Source: Candidatus Rokubacteria bacterium 13_2_20CM_69_15_1
GTDB taxonomy: Bacteria > Methylomirabilota > Methylomirabilia > Rokubacteriales > CSP1-6
Direction of reading: 5' to 3'
Length of the DNA stretch: 64,000 bases
Assembly: GCA_001914535.1 (NCBI GenBank)
Contig: MNCR01000052.1
Coordinates: 3,791-67,790 of the forward strand
The position numbers were made by a program, and so were the translations under genes. Position 1 is the first letter of the stretch. Each line of letters begins with the position of its first letter. Below are positions 25,512 through 33,319 of the stretch, one piece after another. Below the pieces are notes generated by a model. The model did not search any database. It saw only the letters and a program-made list of their open reading frames with translations, and was not told the DNA's origin.

Positions 25512-26681
25512 ATGGTGGAGACCACTCAGAGTCTGCTCGCGATCGCGCGTGCCATCAGTGAGACGACCGACCTCACCGAGACGCTGCGGCGCGTCTGCCG
25601 CGAACTGTCGCGCCTGACCCGCGCGGAGACGGTGGCCGCCTACCTGCTCGACGCCGAGGGCACGGAGATCCGGCCGGTCGCCGCGTATCACGTCCCCGCG
25701 CACACGCTCGAGCTCTTGCGGGCGACGGCCCTTCCGGTCGCCGCGCAGGGGTTCGCCGAGAGCGTGTTCACGGCGGGGCGCGTGGCCTGGAGCGACGACG
25801 TGCAGAACGATCCTCGGTTCGCGTTCCCCCTGTTTCGGGTGTTCCCGCATCAGTCCGGCCTGATCATTCCACTCCAGGTCGGCGGCGTGGTGGCCGGCGC
25901 GTTCTATCTCGTCTGGTGGCGCACGCGGCAGCAGCAGCCTGAGGCCGGAGTGACGATCCTCGCAGCCATCGGGCAGCTGGTCGGGGTGCTGCTCCAGAAC
26001 GTCGGGCTCGCGCGCCTGGCGGAGGCGCGCCGCGGGTCGGCCGAGGCCGCGGAGGAGCGATACCGCCTGCTCTTCGAGGAGAACCTGGCGGGCATTCTGC
26101 GGACGCGGCGGGACGGTCGGATCCTCGACTGCAACGAGAGCCTCGCACGCCTGCTGGGCTACGCGTCACGCCAGGAGGTTCTCGGCCGCAACGCGCGAGA
26201 CTTCTATCTGGATCCGGGCGACCGCGAGAGAGTCCTGAGGGGCATCGAGCCCGGCGCCACGGCGAACGCGCGCGAGGTCTACTGGCGGCGCCGCGACGGC
26301 ACGCCGATCTGGCTTCGCGTGAACCTCCGGGCGACGGGCGACGGCTCGTTCGAGGGGATTCTCGTCGACATCTCAGACGGCAAGCGCGTCGCGCAGGCGG
26401 AGCGCGAGGCCGCGGAGCTCCGCGCCGTCGCGATGCTCGCGACCGGGGCCGCGCACGAGATCAACAATCCGCTCACGATCCTCCTCGGCCAGCTGACCCT
26501 CCTCGCGCGAGAGAATCCCGGCGGCCCGCGGCTCCCGAAGATCGTCGCGGCCGCCGAGCGAATCCGGGACATCGTCGGCCGCATGGCTGGCATCACCCGG
26601 ATCGAGGTGGCCCAGCAGTCCTCGGCAACGCTGCCGCCGATGCTCGACATCCGAAAATCGGGCGACGCCCCCGGCCCGTAG
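25512..26681 (+). CDS. GAF-PAS-HisKA protein lacking an HATPase_c domain
   Basis: N-terminal GAF. Central PAS (LFEENLAGILRTRRDGRILDCNESLARLLGY). H-box AAHEINNPLT. Ends about 60 aa after the H-box with no N/G1/F/G2 boxes. Confidence 0.6.
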   Translation: MVETTQSLLAIARAISETTDLTETLRRVCRELSRLTRAETVAAYLLDAEGTEIRPVAAYHVPAHTLELLRATALPVAAQGFAESVFTAGRVAWSDDVQNDPRFAFPLFRVFPHQSGLIIPLQVGGVVAGAFYLVWWRTRQQQPEAGVTILAAIGQLVGVLLQNVGLARLAEARRGSAEAAEERYRLLFEENLAGILRTRRDGRILDCNESLARLLGYASRQEVLGRNARDFYLDPGDRERVLRGIEPGATANAREVYWRRRDGTPIWLRVNLRATGDGSFEGILVDISDGKRVAQAEREAAELRAVAMLATGAAHEINNPLTILLGQLTLLARENPGGPRLPKIVAAAERIRDIVGRMAGITRIEVAQQSSATLPPMLDIRKSGDAPGP

Positions 26682-26832: not shown

Positions 26833-27879
26833 GTGCGCTTGCTCCTCCTCGTCGGAATCGCAGAGGCCGCGTGCGCCACGCCGACGCCCCAGGCCCGTGC
26901 GCAGGCGTATCTCGCCGAGGGCCAGGCCTTCATCGCCCGGGGCGAGATGGCGTCGGCCGCAAGCGCGCTGCGCGCGGCGCTCCGCCTCCAACCCGACCTG
27001 GTCCAGGCCCGCTCGAGCCTCGGGCAGGCACTCTACGGTATGGGCGATCTCGACGCCGCGGTCGAAGAGCTCCGCGCGACCGTGCGACGGCGGCCCGACG
27101 CCGTATCGGCGCGGCTGACCCTGGCCGCGGCGCTCGTGGCGAAGCAGGACTGGGCGGCGGCGCGCGTCGAGCTCGAGCAAGTCCTCGAGGAGCGCCCCGA
27201 CCTCCTCCAGGCGTACTACAGCCTGGGCGTCGCGCGCTACGCGCAGGGCGATCGCGTCGGCGCGATCGACGCGTACCGCCGCGTCCTCGCGCGCGACCCG
27301 CAGCACCAGGACGCGCGCTACAACATGGCGCTCGTGCTGAAGCTGGTACACCGCGACGTCGAGGCGGCGTCGGAGTTCCTCACCGCCGCGCAGGCCGGGC
27401 ACGCGCAGGCGCAGTACTTCGCGGGCACGGCCTACGCCGAGGGGTTCGGTGTCGAGCGCGATCTGGTGACCGCGATCACGTGGTGGTTTCGGGCGGCCGA
27501 GCAGGGGGTGACGCAGGCCGAGGAAGCGCTCGCACAGCTTCGGCAGCTGGCGCTCGGGCGGAGCCGGCGTGTGTCGACCGATCGCCAGGCCGTCGAGCAG
27601 GCGTTCCGGGACTACCGGGCCGCACTCTGGCGGGACTTCCCGGACCTGGTATCGAACGGCGACGACACGGTGGGCGGGGCGCTCCTGCGCCGGGGGCGCG
27701 CGCGCGAGGCGGTGCCGGTGCTGATCCGGGAGGCCTCCGCGCTGAGCGAGCCGGCCGAGCGGCTGCTCGAGACCCTCTATGACCAGGGCGTCCAGGGATT
27801 GCTGCCCGCGCATGACGCGCAAATCCGCGGCTACTTCGGCCGCGCGGCCGCCGAGGGTCTGCGCACGCCGACCCGCTAG
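26833..27879 (+). CDS. TPR/Sel1-repeat protein
   Basis: Signal-peptide-like N-terminus. Repeated TPR units, and Sel1-like AQAQYFAGTAYAEGFGVERDLVTAITWWFRAAEQG. Confidence 0.7.
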   Translation: MRLLLLVGIAEAACATPTPQARAQAYLAEGQAFIARGEMASAASALRAALRLQPDLVQARSSLGQALYGMGDLDAAVEELRATVRRRPDAVSARLTLAAALVAKQDWAAARVELEQVLEERPDLLQAYYSLGVARYAQGDRVGAIDAYRRVLARDPQHQDARYNMALVLKLVHRDVEAASEFLTAAQAGHAQAQYFAGTAYAEGFGVERDLVTAITWWFRAAEQGVTQAEEALAQLRQLALGRSRRVSTDRQAVEQAFRDYRAALWRDFPDLVSNGDDTVGGALLRRGRAREAVPVLIREASALSEPAERLLETLYDQGVQGLLPAHDAQIRGYFGRAAAEGLRTPTR

Positions 27880-27902: not shown

Positions 27903-30566
27903 GTGCTCCCGGCCGCGGTCATCGGCCTCGCGGCCAGCCTGGCGGCGACGGCCGTGGCCGTCTTCGCCGGCGCCGGCCTCACCGCGCTCGAGTGGTCGGT
28001 CTACGATCATCGTATGCGCGCGCGCGAGCCGGCGTCCGTCAGCCCCGCGCTGGTGGTCGTCGCGCGCGACCCGGCGAGCGAGGCTCGATTCGGCGCGGGT
28101 CCGTGGGACCGGGCGTTGCTCGCCCGGCTCATCACGGGCCTCTCCCGCGCTGGCGCCGCGGTCATCGGTGTCGACGTGCCCCTCGGGCAGCCGAGCCTGC
28201 CCGGTCGTGGCGGCGCCGGGAGCGACGCGTTGCTGAGCCAGGCGACCGCGCTGGCGGACAACGTCGTCTACCCGATCGCGCTCGACCCGGCCGGGGCAGC
28301 GGCGGACCCCGGCTCCCCGAGCCACGCATCCTGGCCACCGCTCTCGCAGATCTCGCTGGCGCTGCCGGCCGCGGGGTCGCGCGTCGGCCCGCTGCCCGGG
28401 CTTGCCCGACACGCCAGGGCCGTCGGCCACACGCTCGCGCCGGCCGATCCCGACGGCGTCGTACGCAGGGTTCCGCTCTTCGTCCGAGTCGACGACCGCG
28501 CGGTGCCGGCGCTCGGCCTGGCGCTGGCGATCGCGTCCGCGAGCGCGTCGGCGGATCGGATCGCGATGGATGGCCGCGGGGTGACGGTCCCCCGTTCGGG
28601 CACGATCGCCGTCGACTCGCGCGGCCGGGCGCTCGTCGGCTACGTCGCGCCGGAGCGGCTCACGGTCGTGCCATTCCTCGACATCTGGACGGCCATCGAC
28701 GCCTCGCAGGCCCAGACGCTCCGAGGCTTGGTCGAGGACAAGATCGTCCTGGTGCTCGCCGAGCCCGCGCACGGGCTCTCTCGAACGCCCATCGGCCCCA
28801 TGTCCGACATCCTGATCCAGGCGGAGCTACTCAACGCCGTGCTGGCGGGCTCGTGGCTCAGAGCCGCGCCGCTCGGGTGGGCCCTGGCGGCCACGCTCGC
28901 CGTCGCGGCGATCGCGGCGTGGCTCGGCCTGGCGCTCGCCTGGTGGAAGGGGCTGGTCGGCGTCGCGGCGCTGACGTCGGGCTATACCGCGCTTGTCCTC
29001 CTGGCGCCCGCGCTGATCGGCGTCCTGTTGCCGGTGGTCCCGCCGCTCGCAGCGGTGGTCGTGGCCTGCGCCGGAGCGCTCCTGTGGAACCAGGTCGGCT
29101 CCGCCTATCGCCTCCGGCGCCTCGAAGGCGAGGCCGAATCGATCCGCGAGGCCCTGGTGCGCCGAGAGTCCACGGTGGAGGGGCTGGAAGAAGACCTCGA
29201 GGCGGCGCGCGCCGCGGTGGCGCGATCGACCGGGGCCGAGCGCGAGCTCCTCCAGGCCGTGGACGGGCTGCGGGCCCAGCTCACCGACGCACGCGCGCTG
29301 GAGGCAGAGACACGAGGCCGGCTCACCGAGCTCGAACGCGAGCTACGCGCCGCCGACACCCGACACGTGCAGCTCGACGATCCCGCCCACGAGCGATTGC
29401 GGCGACAGTGTGCGGAGGTCTCCATCATCACCCGCGAGCCCGCGGTGCTGTCGCGCTTCCGGGATCTGGAGAAGGCCGCGCGCTCGTCCCTGCCGATCCT
29501 CATCCTCGGCGAGCCGGGAACGGGCAAGGAGCTGTTCGCACGGGCGGCCCACCGCCTGAGCTCGCGCGCCAGCGGGCCGTTCGTCGCGGTGAACATGGCC
29601 GCCATTCCGACCGAGCTGTTCGAGAGCGAGCTGTTCGGCCATGCGAAGGGGAGCTTCACGGGCGCGGTCGCCGAGCGCAAGGGGTACTTCGAGCAAGCGG
29701 ATGGCGGGACGATCTTCCTGGACGAGATCGGCGAGCTCCGAGCTCCAGACCAGAGCAAGCTGCTCCGGGTCCTTCAAGAAAAGACCTTCTACCGGGTCGG
29801 GGCAACACGGCCCACCGCGGTGGACGTTCGGGTCGTCGCCGCCAGCAACCGGGATCTCGAGCGCGGCGTCGCGGAGGGCTGGTTCCGTGAGGACCTCTAT
29901 TTCCGTCTGAAGGGCCTCGTTCTCCGGCTCCCGTCGCTGCGCGAGCGGCGCCAGGACGTGGCGCCGCTGGCGGCGCGCTTCCTCGAGGAAGCCGCAGCCG
30001 AGGCTTCCCGGCGCGTCACGCTGTCGGAGGCCGCGCTGCGCGCGCTCGAACGGCACCCCTGGCCCGGCAACGTCCGGGAGCTGCAGCACTGTCTTCGTCA
30101 GGCCGTCGCGCTCGCCGATCGAGCGGTCCTGGTCCCCGAGGACCTGCGGCTCGCCCCGGCCCCGGACGCGACGGTCGACGCGGGGAGCGACGCGGCGGTC
30201 CTCCTCTGCCTGCGCCAGCACGGATTCGATATGCAGGCGACGGCGCGGGCGCTCCAGTGGGACCGGAGCACGGTGACGCAGCGACTCAAGGGCCTGGGCT
30301 TCCGTGCGCTGGTCGAGGCCGGTGGGGATCGGCGGAAGGCCGCGCTGGAGCTGGCCGGCGACCCGGCGCTCGGCCGCGCCGTGGAGCTGAAGCTTTCCGA
30401 ATACCACGAGCACCTGCTGAGGGCCGTCGAGGGCATCGACTCCGTCGAAGCCGCGCTGGCCGCGTGCCGGCGGCGCTTCAAGAACCTGCCCGAGCGTCAC
30501 TTCCGCTCGCTCGAGTTCCTGGTCCGCCAGCGCTTCGAGGGACAACCCCCGAAAGCCCGCGTCTGA
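27903..30566 (+). CDS. Membrane-bound CHASE2-sensor sigma-54-dependent transcriptional activator (bEBP) with C-terminal Fis-type HTH
   Basis: N-terminal TM helix, periplasmic CHASE2 region, three further TM helices, coiled coil. AAA+ sigma-54 interaction domain with Walker A GEPGTGKE and GSFTGA (GAFTGA-type) loop. HTH_8 (ATARALQWDRSTVTQRLKGLG). Confidence 0.85.
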   Translation: MLPAAVIGLAASLAATAVAVFAGAGLTALEWSVYDHRMRAREPASVSPALVVVARDPASEARFGAGPWDRALLARLITGLSRAGAAVIGVDVPLGQPSLPGRGGAGSDALLSQATALADNVVYPIALDPAGAAADPGSPSHASWPPLSQISLALPAAGSRVGPLPGLARHARAVGHTLAPADPDGVVRRVPLFVRVDDRAVPALGLALAIASASASADRIAMDGRGVTVPRSGTIAVDSRGRALVGYVAPERLTVVPFLDIWTAIDASQAQTLRGLVEDKIVLVLAEPAHGLSRTPIGPMSDILIQAELLNAVLAGSWLRAAPLGWALAATLAVAAIAAWLGLALAWWKGLVGVAALTSGYTALVLLAPALIGVLLPVVPPLAAVVVACAGALLWNQVGSAYRLRRLEGEAESIREALVRRESTVEGLEEDLEAARAAVARSTGAERELLQAVDGLRAQLTDARALEAETRGRLTELERELRAADTRHVQLDDPAHERLRRQCAEVSIITREPAVLSRFRDLEKAARSSLPILILGEPGTGKELFARAAHRLSSRASGPFVAVNMAAIPTELFESELFGHAKGSFTGAVAERKGYFEQADGGTIFLDEIGELRAPDQSKLLRVLQEKTFYRVGATRPTAVDVRVVAASNRDLERGVAEGWFREDLYFRLKGLVLRLPSLRERRQDVAPLAARFLEEAAAEASRRVTLSEAALRALERHPWPGNVRELQHCLRQAVALADRAVLVPEDLRLAPAPDATVDAGSDAAVLLCLRQHGFDMQATARALQWDRSTVTQRLKGLGFRALVEAGGDRRKAALELAGDPALGRAVELKLSEYHEHLLRAVEGIDSVEAALAACRRRFKNLPERHFRSLEFLVRQRFEGQPPKARV

Positions 30567-30602
30567 CCGGGAACCTGCGTGGACGCGGGGCTCCAGAGCG
30601 GG

Positions 30603-30624
30603 GATGCGGGGCTCTCCCCGCATC
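30603..30624. promoter_or_regulatory. Perfect 9-bp-arm palindrome GATGCGGGGctctCCCCGCATC (candidate UAS for the adjacent bEBP)
   Basis: Seen in sequence. Lies about 85 bp upstream of the -24 element. Confidence 0.4.
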
Positions 30625-30686
30625 ACGCGGACCGCGTCCCGCGCCCAAGTGCCCGAGACCACTCGTCCCGTCGCGTCTAGCCGAAC

Positions 30687-30702
30687 TGGCTCGTGTGTTG
30701 CT
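30687..30702 (+). promoter_or_regulatory. Sigma-54 (-24/-12) promoter-like element TGGCTC-N5-TTGCT
   Basis: GG-N10-GC spacing is exact. One mismatch to TGGCAC-N5-TTGCW. About 30 bp upstream of the OmpA-like ATG and its GGAGG RBS. Confidence 0.5.
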
Positions 30703-30730
30703 CTCCCTCCTTTTCCAAGGAGGAACGGCC

Positions 30731-31333
30731 ATGGACAACACACAGCAGCAGGCAACCGGGACGCGAAGCGGGAAGGAGGTGGCGATGCTCGTCGGAGTGC
30801 TCCTGATGGTCGTCGCCGGAACGATCACGACATACTGGGTGAGCTCGAGGAGCACGGAGGAGACCCCGGCCAAGCCGGACGTGGTCACGCCCCTTGCCGG
30901 CGCAGCGACGAGCCCCGGCCTCGGCGTCGTCCACAGCGACGTCTACTTCGACTTCAAGAGCGCACGCCTCCGGGCCGACGCCGTCCGCGTCCTTCAGGAG
31001 ACCGTCACGCTCCTGGGCCGGGCGAGCGCCTGGGTGGTGCTCGTTCAGGGCTATGCCGACCGTCAGGGCCCGCCCGAGTACAACAGGGTTCTGGCGCTCC
31101 GGCGCGCGGAGGCCGTCAAGCAGTTTCTGGTCGAGCTCGGCGTCCCGGACGCCTCGGTCAAGGTCGTCACCATCGGGCAATACGGTGCTCTCTGTGACGA
31201 CCCGAGCAAGGAGTGCCAGCAGATCAACCGTCGGGTGCACGTCGAGATCCGGAAGCTCGCCCCCGCTGCCGCCGCGCCTATCCGGGCGACGACTGCGGAC
31301 GGCGATGCGCAGGCTACACCGGCTCGTCCGTGA
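30731..31333 (+). CDS. OmpA/MotB-family peptidoglycan-binding protein with N-terminal membrane anchor
   Basis: Single TM (VAMLVGVLLMVVAGTITTYW). OmpA_C domain (VLVQGYADRQGPPEYNRVLALRRAEAVKQFL). Confidence 0.8.
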   Translation: MDNTQQQATGTRSGKEVAMLVGVLLMVVAGTITTYWVSSRSTEETPAKPDVVTPLAGAATSPGLGVVHSDVYFDFKSARLRADAVRVLQETVTLLGRASAWVVLVQGYADRQGPPEYNRVLALRRAEAVKQFLVELGVPDASVKVVTIGQYGALCDDPSKECQQINRRVHVEIRKLAPAAAAPIRATTADGDAQATPARP

Positions 31334-32649
31334 CCGGCTGAGGAACGAGCGTCTCCGCCCGGCCCGTGTCGCGGGTCGGGCGGAGACGCGATGGCGACTA
31401 CGCGACGATCTCGATGGCCTGTGCGAACACCGCGGACGCCCCGCCGCAGGCACTCTACGTTGAAGGCCCTGAGGCGCGCCCCGTCCGCCGTGAGTGTCGC
31501 GCGGTAGTCGGTGATCGGCCGATCGGTGAAGACGACGTCGAAGACCGTGGTCTCCCCGATCACCTGCGCCGCCAGGCTGGACTTCCGGACGATGTCGGCC
31601 AGGCCGTCGCGCAGCGTCCGGCCGGTTCGGTGGAGCCTCGCGTACGCGCCGGGCTTCCGGAGCTCGGCGAGCGTGGCGAGTCCGGCGACGGCCGCGACGG
31701 GGTTGCCGTTCAGCGTGCCGACCTGCGCGACGAAATCCGGGGTGCCTTCCAGTTGCGGATCGAAGGCGCGCATGATCTCCCGCCGCCCGCAGACGGCGGC
31801 GAGCGGGAAGCCGCCGCCGATGATCTTGCCGTACGCGGCGAGATCAGGAACGACGCCGTAATACTCCTGGGCGCCGCCGTAGGCGAAGCGGAATCCGGTG
31901 ACGACCTCGTCGAAGATCAGCGGGATCCCGTGGCGCCGCGTGAGCGTGCGGAGCCCCTCGAGGAAGCCGGGCTCGGGCGGGATGAGCCGCTGGAACGGCT
32001 CGACGATGACCGCAGCCAGCGCGTCGGCGTACACCGCGACGAGCGCCTCGACGGTGGCGAGGTCGTTGTAGGGGGCGATCAGCACCTCGCCCTCGAGGAC
32101 GTGCGGGATGCCCGCCGAGTCCGCCGTGGCGGCGGGGAACGCCTTGGGCGACTTCGGCGACGCGCTCATCAGCGCATAGTCGTGGCTGCCGTGGTACCCG
32201 CCCTCGAACTTCATGACCTTCTCGCGCTTACGGTAGGCGCGCGCCGCTCGGAGCGCGAAGAAGGTCGCCTCGGTTCCGGTCGACGTGAAGCGTACCTGTT
32301 CGGCGCACGGCACCGCCCGACAGAGCTCATCGGCCAGCGCGACGACGGGCTCGTTCACGAGGAAGTAGGTGGTTCCGTGCTCGAGCTGGGCCCGCACCGC
32401 CGCCACCACCGCCGGGTGCGCGTGACCCAGGATCATCGGGCCGGAGCCCATGAGGTAGTCGATATACTCGCGCCCGCTCACGTCGTAGAGCTTGGATCCG
32501 CGACCGCGCTTGACGATGAACGCGAGATCGTCCGGGAGCCGCGCCGATCCAAGGACGCCGCCGGGCAGAGCGCGCGCCGCGGTTTCGAGAATGCGCCGTT
32601 CTTCGTCCGATCGCGCTCCGTCCATGTCGGCTCTGCCTCCCGGCGCCAT
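31063..32649 (-). CDS. Class III (GSA-aminomutase-like) aminotransferase; 3' end aberrant (possible pseudogene or frameshift)
   Basis: ATG at 32649 after a GGCGGAGG RBS. PLP-fold motifs (YLMGSGPMILGHAHP, DEVVTGFRFAYGGAQ). The canonical roughly 40-aa C-terminus after ...AFNVECLRRGV is absent. The frame reads through the hairpin into the convergent OmpA-like gene. The biologically meaningful end is probably near 31400-31440. Confidence 0.6.
   Translation of the reverse strand: MAPGGRADMDGARSDEERRILETAARALPGGVLGSARLPDDLAFIVKRGRGSKLYDVSGREYIDYLMGSGPMILGHAHPAVVAAVRAQLEHGTTYFLVNEPVVALADELCRAVPCAEQVRFTSTGTEATFFALRAARAYRKREKVMKFEGGYHGSHDYALMSASPKSPKAFPAATADSAGIPHVLEGEVLIAPYNDLATVEALVAVYADALAAVIVEPFQRLIPPEPGFLEGLRTLTRRHGIPLIFDEVVTGFRFAYGGAQEYYGVVPDLAAYGKIIGGGFPLAAVCGRREIMRAFDPQLEGTPDFVAQVGTLNGNPVAAVAGLATLAELRKPGAYARLHRTGRTLRDGLADIVRKSSLAAQVIGETTVFDVVFTDRPITDYRATLTADGARLRAFNVECLRRGVRGVRTGHRDRRVVAIASPPDPRHGPGGDARSSAGHGRAGVACASPSAVVARIGAAAAGASFRISTCTRRLICWHSLLGSSQRAPYCPMVTTLTEASGTPSSTRNCLTASARRSARTLLYSGGP
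31351..31387. terminator. GC-rich hairpin with 16-bp stem (one mismatch) and no U-tract, between convergent genes
   Basis: gtctccgcccggcccg-tgtcg-cgggtcgggcggagac. Begins 18 nt after the OmpA-like stop. Confidence 0.45.
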
Positions 32650-33319
32650 CACGCGCCTCCGCCTGTGTCGTGCCGTGGCGCAAGCGTACAAGGTTTTGGG
32701 CGACTCCACGAGCCCGAGGACGCGGTTCTTGAACCTCCGGATCGGGCCACCTACACTGTGGCCACTCGCGAAACCGGTGGTGGCCTCGGGGAGAGCGAGA
32801 CCGATGAGAGAGCTCGTCTTCGCCCTGGAGTTCAGAGGAAGCGCCGGGCCGCTCCCCGGCGCCGAGGGCAGGCGCCGAGCGAGAACGTGGGCCTCTAGCC
32901 AGGTGTTCCGCACCGTATTCCGCGGGGGTGAGGTCCGGGCGTCGGTCGAGCTCGAGGGTGACGGCGTCGCCGTTCTCGAGTCGGAGGTTCAGGTGACCGG
33001 GAAGGGCACGTTCGTCGAGTCGGGCACGATCAGTTACGGCGACGCCGGTCGGGTCACGTTTCGAACGGTCGGGCAGGGAGTGACCGGCCCGAGCGCGATC
33101 GCGGGGCTCCGGCACGGCGCCGTGATCTGGGAAGTCACCCAAGGGGAGGGCCGCCTCGCAGGGGCTCGGGGATTCATCACCTCGAATTTCACGGTCGGGC
33201 CCGACGGGCAGGTGACCGACAACCATTTCGTCCGACTCTTCCTGCCTTGACAGTCCAATCCCTCAGGACGGGATGGCGCGGACGAAGCCCGCGCTCGAAC
33301 GGTGGCCCCTCCAGCGCGC

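What the first reader, a model, noticed from the sequence alone, without database searches (positions are those of the whole stretch)
30603..30733. Complete sigma-54 regulatory cassette between the bEBP and an OmpA/MotB-like gene: palindromic UAS, then -24/-12 element, then RBS
A perfect inverted repeat GATGCGGGG-ctct-CCCCGCATC (30603-30624) lies about 85 bp upstream of TGGCTC-N5-TTGCT (30687-30702), which matches the GG-N10-GC spacing exactly with one mismatch to consensus. This is followed about 30 bp later by GGAGG and the ATG of a TM-anchored OmpA_C protein. The membrane CHASE2-sigma-54 activator therefore probably drives this peptidoglycan-binding protein in response to an extracytoplasmic cue. 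This would be a self-contained envelope-remodelling module.
Basis: partly seen in the sequence, partly recalled or inferred. Interest (0 to 1): 0.65.

Follow-up and report, generated by a model that had tools for sequence, protein, structure and literature searches.

The report
Conserved sigma-54 enhancer-promoter for OmpA-like gene
The short gap between a membrane-embedded sigma-54 activator gene and a peptidoglycan-binding OmpA-like gene holds an activator-site array, a likely bend site and a sigma-54 promoter; all three are conserved in sequence and helical phase in two bacterial phyla, and in relatives they head a Gram-negative sortase operon that this genome has lost.

Summary
The palindrome is at 30603-30624 and TGGCTC-N5-TTGCT at 30687-30702. 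GGAGG is at 30719-30723 and the ATG at 30731. Neither the palindrome nor the promoter match is above chance within the window alone. Comparative data make the case.

- **Promoter:** TGGC-N7-TTGCTC lies just upstream of the OmpA-like gene in 17 of 18 Rokubacteria loci and in 4 Nitrospira loci. GG and TTGCTC are invariant while the spacer varies.
- **Enhancer:** the palindrome is part of an array of TGCGGGG heptamers, direct copies plus one inverted. The array stays with the promoter, not with the activator's stop codon, when other genes intervene.
- **Phasing:** the palindrome, a third conserved block (CAAGT-N3-YGAA) and the -24 element sit at spacings that differ by about 10.5 bp.
- **Operon:** in many relatives the OmpA-like gene is followed by a VIT-VWA sortase target (TIGR03788) and a class GN sortase (TIGR03784). 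The window's clade keeps only the OmpA-like gene.

Binding of the activator to the heptamers, the transcription start and rpoN are untested. I rate this a new variant of a known kind, of moderate interest.

The parts
26833..27879 (+). TPR/Sel1-repeat protein gene, the conserved partner immediately upstream of the activator gene
   Evidence: Pfam finds TPR_11, TPR_16, TPR_1 and Sel1. A homologous TPR gene lies upstream of the activator gene in nearly all Rokubacteria and Nitrospira loci whose contig reaches that far. All NCBIfam hits are below their cut-offs.
27903..30566 (+). Integral-membrane CHASE2 sigma-54 activator (bEBP). Layout: TM1 aa 1-29, periplasmic CHASE2 about aa 30-320, three TM helices aa 321-396, a roughly 100-aa charged linker that looks like a coiled coil, the AAA+ domain aa 508-750, an HTH at aa 769-796 and a conserved C-terminal extension of about 90 aa.
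   Evidence: Pfam: CHASE2 134 bits, Sigma54_activat 217 bits, AAA_lid_14 74 bits, HTH_8 19 bits (below its cut-off of 22). Motifs present: Walker A GEPGTGK at 536, GSFTGA at 583, Walker B DEIG at 607, REDLYFR at 662, GNVREL at 722. The HTH and the extension are nearly invariant in 34 orthologues.
30584..30622 (+). Heptamer array, the proposed enhancer (UAS). Direct copies: CGCGGGG 30584-30590, aGCGGGG 30597-30603 and TGCGGGG 30605-30611. Inverted copy: CCCCGCA 30616-30622.
   Evidence: Heptamer map. The same arrangement, at least two direct copies and one inverted, is seen in most orthologous cassettes. The core GCGGGGATGCGGGG is unique in the window.
30603..30624 (+). Its centre is 73.5 bp upstream of the T of TGGC, about -99.5 from the predicted start site.
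   Evidence: It is conserved in Rokubacteria and Nitrospira. L036 has a symmetric variant, TGCGTGG-N4-CCACGCA.
30646..30660 (+). Third conserved block, CAAGTgcccGAGAC (family consensus CAAGT-N3-YGAA). It is a candidate DNA-bending or IHF-like site between the enhancer and the promoter.
   Evidence: The AA of CAAGT is invariant in the 22-locus alignment. The block sits 30, 41 or 51-53 bp upstream of the T of TGGC in different clades.
30687..30703 (+). Sigma-54 -24/-12 promoter element, TGGCTC-GTGTG-TTGCTC
   Evidence: It is the only TGGC-N7-TTGCW in 64 kb. In 31 distinct cassettes GG is 31/31, the following C 30/31 and TTGCTC 31/31 at every position, with a variable spacer. No sigma-70-like promoter is found in 30000-31500.
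30713..30713 (+). Predicted transcription start (plus or minus 1 nt), which gives an 18-nt leader
   Evidence: This is inferred from the usual position of GC at -13/-12 in sigma-54 promoters (established knowledge). It was not measured.
30719..30723 (+). Shine-Dalgarno GGAGG, 7 nt before the ATG
   Evidence: AAGGAGG is conserved in the short-leader loci.
30731..31333 (+). Membrane-anchored OmpA_C (peptidoglycan-binding) protein of 200 aa, the target gene
   Evidence: Pfam OmpA 54.8 bits against a cut-off of 27.2. There is one hydrophobic segment at aa 14-38. GYAD at 107, RRA at 124 and NRRV at 166 align with the Pal motifs GHADERG and RRA. GC3 is 0.86. Orthologues follow the promoter in 17 of 18 Rokubacteria loci.

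Best explanation
The 164-bp gap holds a three-part sigma-54 control region for the OmpA-like gene.
1. An enhancer made of TGCGGGG heptamers, direct copies plus one inverted.
2. A conserved block, CAAGT-N3-YGAA, at the position where DNA-bending proteins such as IHF act.
3. A -24/-12 promoter, TGGCTC-N5-TTGCTC.

Proposed mechanism: RNA polymerase with sigma-54 sits on the promoter as a closed complex. The adjacent activator is an inner-membrane protein. Its periplasmic CHASE2 domain, probably working with the co-encoded TPR protein, senses an extracytoplasmic signal. Through a long linker this permits assembly of the AAA+ ring on the heptamer array. DNA looping over the bend site brings the ring to the polymerase, and ATP hydrolysis opens the promoter. 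Transcription starts near 30713 and the 18-nt leader carries GGAGG.

The product is an inner-membrane-anchored peptidoglycan-binding protein. In relatives the same promoter also drives a VIT-VWA sortase substrate and a class GN sortase. The regulon's ancestral role is therefore to install or hold a sortase-processed protein at the cell wall. This genome's clade retains only the OmpA-like gene.

Shown here: the sequence elements, their conservation and phasing, the domain content and the gene neighbourhoods. Inferred: who binds the heptamers, the start site, the signal and the physiological role.
For: **Promoter**
- It is the only TGGC-N7-TTGCW in the window and lies 28 nt before the ATG.
- In 17 of 18 Rokubacteria loci found through the activator protein, not through DNA, TGGC-N7-TTGCT lies upstream of the OmpA-like gene.
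- 31 distinct cassettes have invariant GG and TTGCTC with a variable spacer.
- The distance to the ATG varies from about 28 to about 150 nt, so the element is not part of the ribosome site or the coding sequence.

**Enhancer**
- The heptamer and palindrome sequence is conserved across two phyla and is unique in the window.
- In L012 a VapBC-like pair is inserted after the activator gene, and the array stays 49-91 bp from the promoter.
- In Nitrospira L032 the array lies in a divergent intergenic region.

**Phasing**
- Palindrome centres fall 61.5, 73.5, 94 and 113.5 bp upstream of the T of TGGC. The middle block falls 30, 41 and 51-53 bp upstream.

**Linkage**
- Every hit of the metagenome scan that carries the full signature lies next to the activator gene, and next to the OmpA-like gene wherever the contig reaches it. 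Twelve such loci were taken forward.

**Activator**
- It has all the AAA+ motifs and a GSFTGA loop. GSFTGA also occurs in DVU3220, a sigma-54-dependent response regulator of Desulfovibrio vulgaris with a mapped regulon (PMC4641369).

**Operon context**
- TIGR03788 scores 768 bits against a cut-off of 552.
- TIGR03784 scores 202 bits against a cut-off of 158.
- Both genes follow the OmpA-like gene in many relatives.
Against: - There is no experimental evidence of any kind.
- rpoN is not in the window, and the rest of the genome cannot be read.
- The HTH_8 match is below Pfam's cut-off (19 against 22 bits).
- One Nitrospira clade has an almost identical HTH. Yet the gene after its activator is a large GT2-like membrane protein with its own sigma-54 promoter, and no TGCGGGG palindrome occurs anywhere in the locus. 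Either that promoter uses another activator or the heptamers are not this protein's site.
- The palindrome also forms a stable RNA hairpin inside a larger stem (-55.9 kcal/mol, z = -2.66). A second role in ending the activator's transcript is not excluded.
- The middle block matches the IHF consensus poorly.
- The phasing rests on only four or five independent spacing classes.
Confidence: 0.75

Rival explanations
1. The palindrome is only an intrinsic terminator or RNA-stability hairpin at the 3' end of the activator's mRNA and has no role as a DNA site.
For: It starts 37 nt after the stop codon. It is G+C-rich and folds well inside a larger stem. Two variants change both arms symmetrically (L036 and L062), as an RNA stem would.
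Against: No T-run follows it, and the terminator scan finds nothing. Both arms are conserved in sequence across two phyla, which structure alone does not require. Additional direct heptamer copies lie outside the stem. The element stays next to the promoter when a toxin-antitoxin pair (L012) or 1.2-3.8 kb of other genes (Nitrospira) separate it from the activator gene. In L032 the neighbouring gene is divergent. Its distance to the -24 element changes in steps of about 10.5 bp.
Confidence: 0.08
2. The enhancer and promoter are real, but the heptamers are bound by a different regulator. The adjacent CHASE2 activator either acts from solution or the membrane without binding them, or controls other genes.
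For: Nitrospira loci with the same HTH have a different downstream gene and no palindrome. The HTH_8 match is weak. Some activators of this class work without DNA binding (established knowledge).
Against: The activator gene and the cassette are neighbours in all 34 cassettes examined, in two phyla. It is the only sigma-54 activator in the window. The HTH and the C-terminal extension are as conserved as the heptamers.
Confidence: 0.12
3. The -24/-12 match is a coincidence. The OmpA-like gene is co-transcribed with the activator gene or uses an unrecognised sigma-70-type promoter.
For: One match per 64 kb is within chance for the window. The two genes are co-directional and 164 bp apart.
Against: GG and TTGCTC are invariant in 31 distinct cassettes with variable spacers. 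The element stays with the OmpA-like gene when that gene is separated from the activator gene. No sigma-70-like site is found.
Confidence: 0.03
4. The heptamer array is a dispersed repeat (REP-like) or a G-quadruplex-forming tract without sequence-specific protein binding.
For: Runs of GGGG recur; L005 has five.
Against: The motif occurs once in 64 kb. Across about 1.5 Mb of fetched loci, the full signature appears only in this context. The inverted C-rich copy is the best conserved part. The window has only three G4 runs.
Confidence: 0.02

Closest known systems
IHF-assisted sigma-54 enhancer-promoters such as nifH (NifA), glnAp2 (NtrC) and norV (NorR with three sites)
   Same: There is a GG-N10-GC promoter. 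Activator sites with dyad symmetry are centred about 100 bp upstream of the start. An intervening conserved site lies where a bending protein acts. The elements are face-of-helix phased. Several sites fit assembly of a hexamer; NorR needs all three of its sites (PMC2831303, abstract).
   Different: The site sequence (TGCGGGG heptamers in a direct, direct, inverted arrangement) is not that of any characterised activator that I know of. The activator is an integral membrane protein, so looping would have to take place at the membrane. The middle block fits the IHF consensus only loosely.
Soluble one-component and two-component sigma-54 activators (NtrC, NifA, NorR, PspF, DmpR)
   Same: It has the central AAA+ sigma-54 interaction domain with a GAFTGA-type loop, Walker A and B motifs, arginine fingers and a C-terminal Fis-type HTH.
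   Different: The sensor is a periplasmic CHASE2 domain flanked by four transmembrane helices. A linker of about 100 aa follows, and there is an extra conserved 90 aa after the HTH. Every NCBIfam equivalog scores far below its cut-off. No paper in the searched library combines CHASE2 with sigma-54 or enhancer-binding proteins.
Dedicated Gram-negative (class GN, 'marine proteobacterial') sortase system: sortase TIGR03784, VIT-VWA target TIGR03788 and OmpA-like PdsO TIGR03789
   Same: In many relatives the OmpA-like gene is followed by a bona fide TIGR03788 target and a TIGR03784 sortase. The same trio of protein types, with a single dedicated target encoded beside its sortase, is described by Haft (PMC3237569).
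   Different: The window has neither the sortase nor the target. The OmpA-like protein does not reach the PdsO cut-off (45 against 152 bits). From memory of the TIGRFAMs annotation, the proteobacterial system is paired with a two-component regulator, whereas here the regulator is a TPR protein plus a CHASE2 sigma-54 activator. The phyla are Rokubacteria and Nitrospirota, not Proteobacteria.
Pal, YiaD and YfiB type OmpA_C peptidoglycan-binding proteins
   Same: It has the OmpA_C fold signature with the Asp and Arg that contact peptidoglycan (GYAD, RRA) and the NRRV motif. The best solved relatives are Pal and OmpA-family lipoproteins.
   Different: It is anchored by an N-terminal transmembrane helix, not a lipid or a beta-barrel. 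It scores below the cut-offs of all the named families.

Membership tests
Sigma-54-dependent promoter | GG and GC doublets exactly 10 bp apart within TGGCAC-N5-TTGCW | tested here: met
   TGGCTC-N5-TTGCT at 30687-30702, with one mismatch.
Sigma-54-dependent promoter | The element is conserved at orthologous positions while the spacer and flanks drift | tested here: met
   In 31 distinct cassettes GG is 31/31 and TTGCTC 31/31, with a variable spacer. It is present in 17 of 18 Rokubacteria and 4 of 4 OmpA-bearing Nitrospira loci.
Sigma-54-dependent promoter | Transcription starts about 12 nt downstream of the GC and depends on rpoN | not testable with these tools
   No transcript data are available. 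rpoN is not in the window. Sigma-54-dependent regulators are reported in Nitrospira genomes (PMC6606698).
Bacterial enhancer-binding protein (bEBP) | AAA+ sigma-54 interaction domain with Walker A and B, a GAFTGA loop and arginine fingers | tested here: met
   PF00158 scores 217 bits. GEPGTGK, DEIG, GSFTGA, REDLYFR and GNVREL are present. The GSFTGA variant also occurs in DVU3220, a regulator with a mapped regulon.
Bacterial enhancer-binding protein (bEBP) | C-terminal HTH DNA-binding domain | tested here: inconclusive
   HTH_8 scores 19 bits, below its cut-off of 22. The segment is nearly invariant among orthologues.
Named bEBP equivalogs (NtrC, NifA, NorR, PspF, RtcR, PEP-CTERM-box regulator and others) | Score above the NCBIfam curated cut-off | tested here: not met
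   The best is NifA at 323 bits against 529. All 25 families listed (of 28 matched) are below their cut-offs, and the matches cover the AAA+ core only.
Upstream activator sequence (enhancer) | Repeated or dyad-symmetric sites about 80-150 bp upstream of the start, conserved and phased with the promoter | tested here: met
   The palindrome centre is about -99.5 from the predicted start. The heptamer array is conserved. Spacing classes differ by about 10.5 bp.
Upstream activator sequence (enhancer) | Specific binding by the cognate activator | not testable with these tools
   The only evidence is genomic linkage.
Rho-independent terminator | G+C-rich hairpin followed by a T-run | tested here: not met
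   The hairpin is present, but it has no T-run and the scan finds nothing.
OmpA_C peptidoglycan-binding domain | Pfam PF00691 above its gathering score, with the peptidoglycan-contacting Asp and Arg | tested here: met
   54.8 bits against 27.2. GYAD at 107 and RRA at 124 align with the Pal motifs.
PdsO (TIGR03789, sortase-associated OmpA-like protein) | Score above the curated cut-off | tested here: not met
   45.2 bits against 152.2, and only the C-terminal OmpA part matches. Orthologues score 48-51 bits.
Class GN dedicated sortase system | Sortase TIGR03784 and VIT-VWA target TIGR03788 encoded together | tested here: not met
   Both are absent from the 64-kb window. Both are present and above their cut-offs in the relatives L012-L017, L047, L092, L111 and L177; Nitrospira L032 has the target.
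Known RNA families (Rfam) | Match to a covariance model in the intergenic region or leader | tested here: not met
   No hit at gathering thresholds or at E up to 1 in 30500-30800.

The most novel reading that the evidence does not exclude
A one-component, integral-membrane sigma-54 activator (periplasmic CHASE2 sensor, four transmembrane helices, long linker, AAA+ ring, HTH) binds a TGCGGGG heptamer enhancer and activates transcription while embedded in the inner membrane. This would tether its target promoter to the envelope. It would be the dedicated regulator of a class GN sortase and OmpA-like wall-anchoring operon in Rokubacteria and Nitrospira. That would give CHASE2 its first defined output promoter and give the Gram-negative sortase system a testable inducing pathway.
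Probability: 0.55. Interest if true: 0.65.

Novelty: new variant of a known kind. Interest (0 to 1): 0.55.

Why it matters
Sigma-54 enhancer-promoters are textbook material. Three points go beyond routine here.

- **A membrane-embedded activator.** All characterised activators of this class that I know of are soluble. How a hexameric AAA+ ring assembles on DNA at the membrane is an open mechanistic question, and this cassette offers a defined DNA target to test it.
- **A readout for CHASE2.** CHASE2 is a widespread extracytoplasmic sensor domain, and no ligand for it is known to me. A one-gene readout with a mapped promoter gives a simple reporter for ligand screening.
- **A handle on the Gram-negative sortase.** The class GN sortase system is, as far as I know, known mainly from comparative genomics. 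Linking it to a conserved regulator and promoter in two non-proteobacterial phyla gives a way to find the conditions under which it is expressed.

Both phyla are abundant in soil and in nitrifying systems and are hard to culture. Predictions that can be tested in a heterologous host are therefore useful.

Tried and rejected
- **Terminator reading of the palindrome.** Rejected as the sole function, on position evidence (L012, L032) and the lack of a T-run.
- **Dispersed repeat.** Rejected because the motif is unique in the window.
- **Known RNA element in the gap or leader.** No Rfam hit.
- **Wider regulon of the enhancer.** A metagenome pattern scan returned 120 stretches. About a tenth carry the full signature, and those are at the same locus type. 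The rest are chance G+C hairpins near a GGC-N7-TTGCT.
- **A promoter-like CGGTAGCCGAGTTGCT in many Nitrospira loci.** It lies inside a conserved coding region and was discarded.
- **Co-variation between the HTH and the site variant in L036.** The HTH differs by a single Leu-to-Met change, which is uninformative.
- **Literature.** No paper in the library combines CHASE2 with sigma-54 or enhancer-binding terms. A survey of sigma-54 regulons (PMC12316311) mentions none of the relevant taxa or genes.
- **rpoN.** Not in the window.
- **Structure prediction of the activator.** Considered and not run, because it would not test DNA binding.
Full report
**1. What is in the sequence**

The window has 69.5% G+C. 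Around the finding, codon-position G+C and Pfam give this gene order:
- a TPR/Sel1 protein, 26833-27879 (+);
- an 887-aa protein with CHASE2, Sigma54_activat, AAA_lid_14 and a weak HTH_8, 27903-30566 (+);
- a 164-bp gap;
- a 200-aa OmpA-family protein, 30731-31333 (+);
- a convergent class-III aminotransferase on the minus strand.

- the perfect palindrome GATGCGGGG-ctct-CCCCGCATC at 30603-30624;
- TGGCTC-GTGTG-TTGCT at 30687-30702;
- GGAGG at 30719-30723;
- the ATG at 30731.

**2. Is it more than chance?**

Within the window alone it is not. TGGC-N7-TTGCW occurs once, against 0.43 expected. Perfect 9-bp inverted repeats with short loops are as common as in shuffled sequence, 8 distinct against about 7 expected. 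No sigma-70-like promoter or terminator-like site is found in 30000-31500. The case therefore rests on comparison with relatives.

**3. Relatives**

A scan of one genome per species with the activator protein returned full-length orthologues. They came from Rokubacteria/Methylomirabilota (60-78% identity) and from Nitrospirota (36-49%).

Eighteen Rokubacteria loci have sequence downstream of the activator gene. In 17 of them an OmpA-like orthologue follows, preceded by TGGC-N7-TTGCT. The exception, L010, has neither.

Four Nitrospira loci carry the OmpA-like gene 1.2-3.8 kb further downstream. Each has YGGC-N7-TTGCT in front of it.

I added 12 metagenomic cassettes, which were found by a DNA pattern and so are not independent for the pattern positions. 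That gives 31 distinct cassettes. GG and each base of TTGCTC are invariant in them, while the spacer and flanks vary.

The distance from the element to the ATG is about 28 nt in the window's group, about 85-95 nt in a second Rokubacteria group and about 140-155 nt in Nitrospira. The element is therefore neither coding sequence nor ribosome site. This is the footprint expected of a sigma-54 promoter.

**4. The palindrome is part of a heptamer array and belongs to the promoter**

Upstream of the promoter, nearly all cassettes carry GCGGGGA-TGCGGGG-N3-4-CCCCGCA(TC). That is two direct heptamers and one inverted, often with further direct copies.
- The window has heptamers at 30584, 30597 and 30605 (direct) and at 30616 (inverted).
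- The core is unique in the 64 kb.
- In the 22-locus alignment the inverted CCCCGC is among the best conserved columns.

Two situations separate an enhancer from a terminator.
- In L012 a VapBC-like gene pair is inserted after the activator's stop codon. The array there has three direct copies at 12-bp spacing plus the inverted one. It lies 49-91 bp from the promoter, about 900 bp from the activator's stop.
- In Nitrospira L032 the array lies between the OmpA-like gene and a divergently oriented gene.

The hairpin does fold well as RNA. A secondary role at the end of the activator's mRNA cannot be excluded.

**5. A third element and helical phasing**

Between the array and the promoter lies the conserved block CAAGT-N3-YGAA, at 30646-30660 in the window. 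The AA of CAAGT is invariant in the 22-locus alignment.

Measured from the T of TGGC:
- the block sits 30, 41 or 51-53 bp upstream in different clades;
- the palindrome centre sits 61.5, 73.5, 94 or 113.5-115.5 bp upstream.

All steps are close to one or two helical turns. This is what face-of-helix constraints in a looped enhancer-promoter complex predict. The block occupies the position of IHF sites in classical sigma-54 promoters. Its match to WATCAANNNNTTR (consensus from memory) is loose, CAA-N4-YTG at best. I therefore call it a candidate bend site only. The phasing rests on four or five independent spacing classes.

**6. The activator**

- Hydropathy gives one N-terminal and three further transmembrane segments flanking CHASE2. 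The sensor is therefore periplasmic and the AAA+ and HTH parts are cytoplasmic.
- A charged linker of about 100 aa that looks like a coiled coil lies between the membrane and the AAA+ domain.
- All catalytic motifs are present. The sigma-54-contacting loop reads GSFTGA. The same variant is found in DVU3220, a sigma-54-dependent response regulator of Desulfovibrio vulgaris with a mapped regulon (PMC4641369).
- The HTH segment LRQHGFDMQATAxxLGWDRSTVTQRLKGLGF is nearly invariant from Rokubacteria to Nitrospirales. So is a further 90 aa ending in CRRRFKNLPERHF.
- NCBIfam places the protein in no named family.
- A search of 5.8 billion proteins with the N-terminal half found 318 clusters. The 120 listed carry CHASE2, nearly all of them with Sigma54_activat as well; the few with CHASE2 alone are mostly short. 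None has a name beyond automatic annotation.
- I found no paper that combines CHASE2 with sigma-54 or enhancer-binding proteins.
- A TPR/Sel1 gene precedes the activator gene in essentially every locus, so it is part of the module.

**7. The target and its ancestral operon**

The OmpA-like protein has a single N-terminal membrane anchor and an OmpA_C domain. It carries the Pal-type peptidoglycan-contacting residues GYAD, RRA and NRRV. It is below the cut-off of every named family, including PdsO.

In many relatives it is followed, sometimes with overlapping stop and start codons, by two more genes:
- a VIT-VWA protein that is a clear member of TIGR03788, the 'marine proteobacterial sortase target' (768 bits, cut-off 552);
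- a class GN sortase, TIGR03784 (202 bits, cut-off 158).

The loci concerned are L012-L017, L047, L092, L095, L100, L111 and L177. Nitrospira L032 has the target. Haft described this dedicated Gram-negative sortase with its single VIT-VWA target (PMC3237569).

The window and its closest relatives (L001, L002, L004, L005, L008) lack both genes. The arrangement with the sortase occurs in both phyla, so it is probably ancestral. The window's clade has lost or relocated the sortase pair while keeping the regulator, the enhancer, the promoter and the OmpA-like gene intact. That argues for a function of the OmpA-like protein on its own.

**8. Mechanism proposed**

The signal is sensed by CHASE2 in the periplasm, possibly through the TPR protein. 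It is passed through the linker to allow ring assembly on the heptamer array. The DNA is bent at the middle block, the ring contacts the closed sigma-54 complex, and ATP hydrolysis opens the promoter. Transcription starts near 30713.

The steps from binding onward follow established knowledge of this activator class. That this protein binds these heptamers is inferred from linkage only.

The main caveat is a Nitrospira clade with the same HTH. There the activator gene is followed by a GT2-like membrane protein of more than 1000 aa. That gene has its own sigma-54 promoter and a good IHF-like site but no TGCGGGG palindrome.

**9. Comparison and novelty**

It works like a classical IHF-assisted sigma-54 enhancer-promoter. 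The use of several sites recalls NorR, which needs all three of its sites (PMC2831303, abstract). The envelope-related target fits the view of sigma-54 as controller of the bacterial exterior (PMC3162934).

It differs in the membrane-integral CHASE2 activator, in the heptamer sequence and arrangement, and in the link to a class GN sortase operon outside the Proteobacteria. I rate it a new variant of a known kind.

**10. Verdict**

Confidence in the three-part sigma-54 control region is high. Confidence that the adjacent activator is the protein bound at the heptamers is moderate. Overall confidence in the explanation is 0.75 and interest is 0.55.

Noticed in passing
window 31063-31333 (minus strand) overlapping the 3' end of the OmpA-like gene: The class-III aminotransferase ORF (31063-32913, minus strand) is similar to glutamate-1-semialdehyde aminomutases only up to about aa 493 of 616. 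Its last 85 or so codons run antisense through the OmpA-like gene. The apparent 'aminotransferase' hits in other loci are just the antisense frame of OmpA orthologues. This is either a real 270-nt convergent overlap or a lost stop codon or frameshift.
   Followed up: partly
window 30705-30723: CCCUCC (30705-30710) can pair with the Shine-Dalgarno GGAGG (30719-30723). The predicted sigma-54 start (about 30713) lies in the loop. Only read-through RNA from the activator gene would therefore have the ribosome site sequestered. A similar pairing is seen in 6 of 8 short-leader loci, but the folding z-scores are weak (-0.7 to -2.1).
   Followed up: partly
L006, L013, L014, L039, L047, L062, L011, L024: about 20-60 nt downstream of the -12 element: Relatives with an 85-95 nt leader share a conserved G+C-rich leader segment (GGGCGCCGGCCGCAC.GGGCGG). 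Nitrospira leaders share GGCCGGAAAGGAGGTGA. There is no Rfam match. This may be a further regulatory RNA element, which is absent from the window.
   Followed up: partly
L030 6650-6900, also L035, L059, L064, L044, L060: In one Nitrospira clade the orthologous activator gene is followed by CGGCACCTGGATTGCA with a good IHF-like site (TATCAAGCTTTTTT). Next comes a GT2-like membrane protein of more than 1000 aa. No TGCGGGG palindrome occurs in these loci, although the HTH is the same.
   Followed up: partly
window 30300-30563 (activator aa about 797-887): The activator continues for about 90 aa after its HTH, with a nearly invariant CRRRFKNLPERHF motif. Pfam finds no domain there.
   Followed up: no
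window 25512-26681: A GAF-PAS-HisKA protein of 389 aa ends shortly after the HisKA domain and has no HATPase_c domain. It is not conserved next to the TPR gene in relatives.
   Followed up: no
L012 6124-6694: A VapBC-like toxin-antitoxin pair (judged by eye, not confirmed with Pfam) is inserted between the activator gene and the enhancer. This insertion is what allowed the enhancer to be assigned to the promoter.
   Followed up: partly
L014 9542-9827; C-terminal ends of the VIT-VWA genes in L012-L017 and L092: The sortase is reduced to a fragment in L014, and a short duplicate of the start of the VIT-VWA gene follows it. The VIT-VWA targets end in LPHGW..FG.GQGAT, then a hydrophobic helix and a basic tail, which is not a canonical LPXTG.
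   Followed up: no
L009 763 and 826; L039 7506 and 7569: The palindrome GCGGGGCCCCAGCCCCGC occurs twice, 63 bp apart, in two different Rokubacteria loci outside the cassette. It may be a separate repeat family.
   Followed up: no
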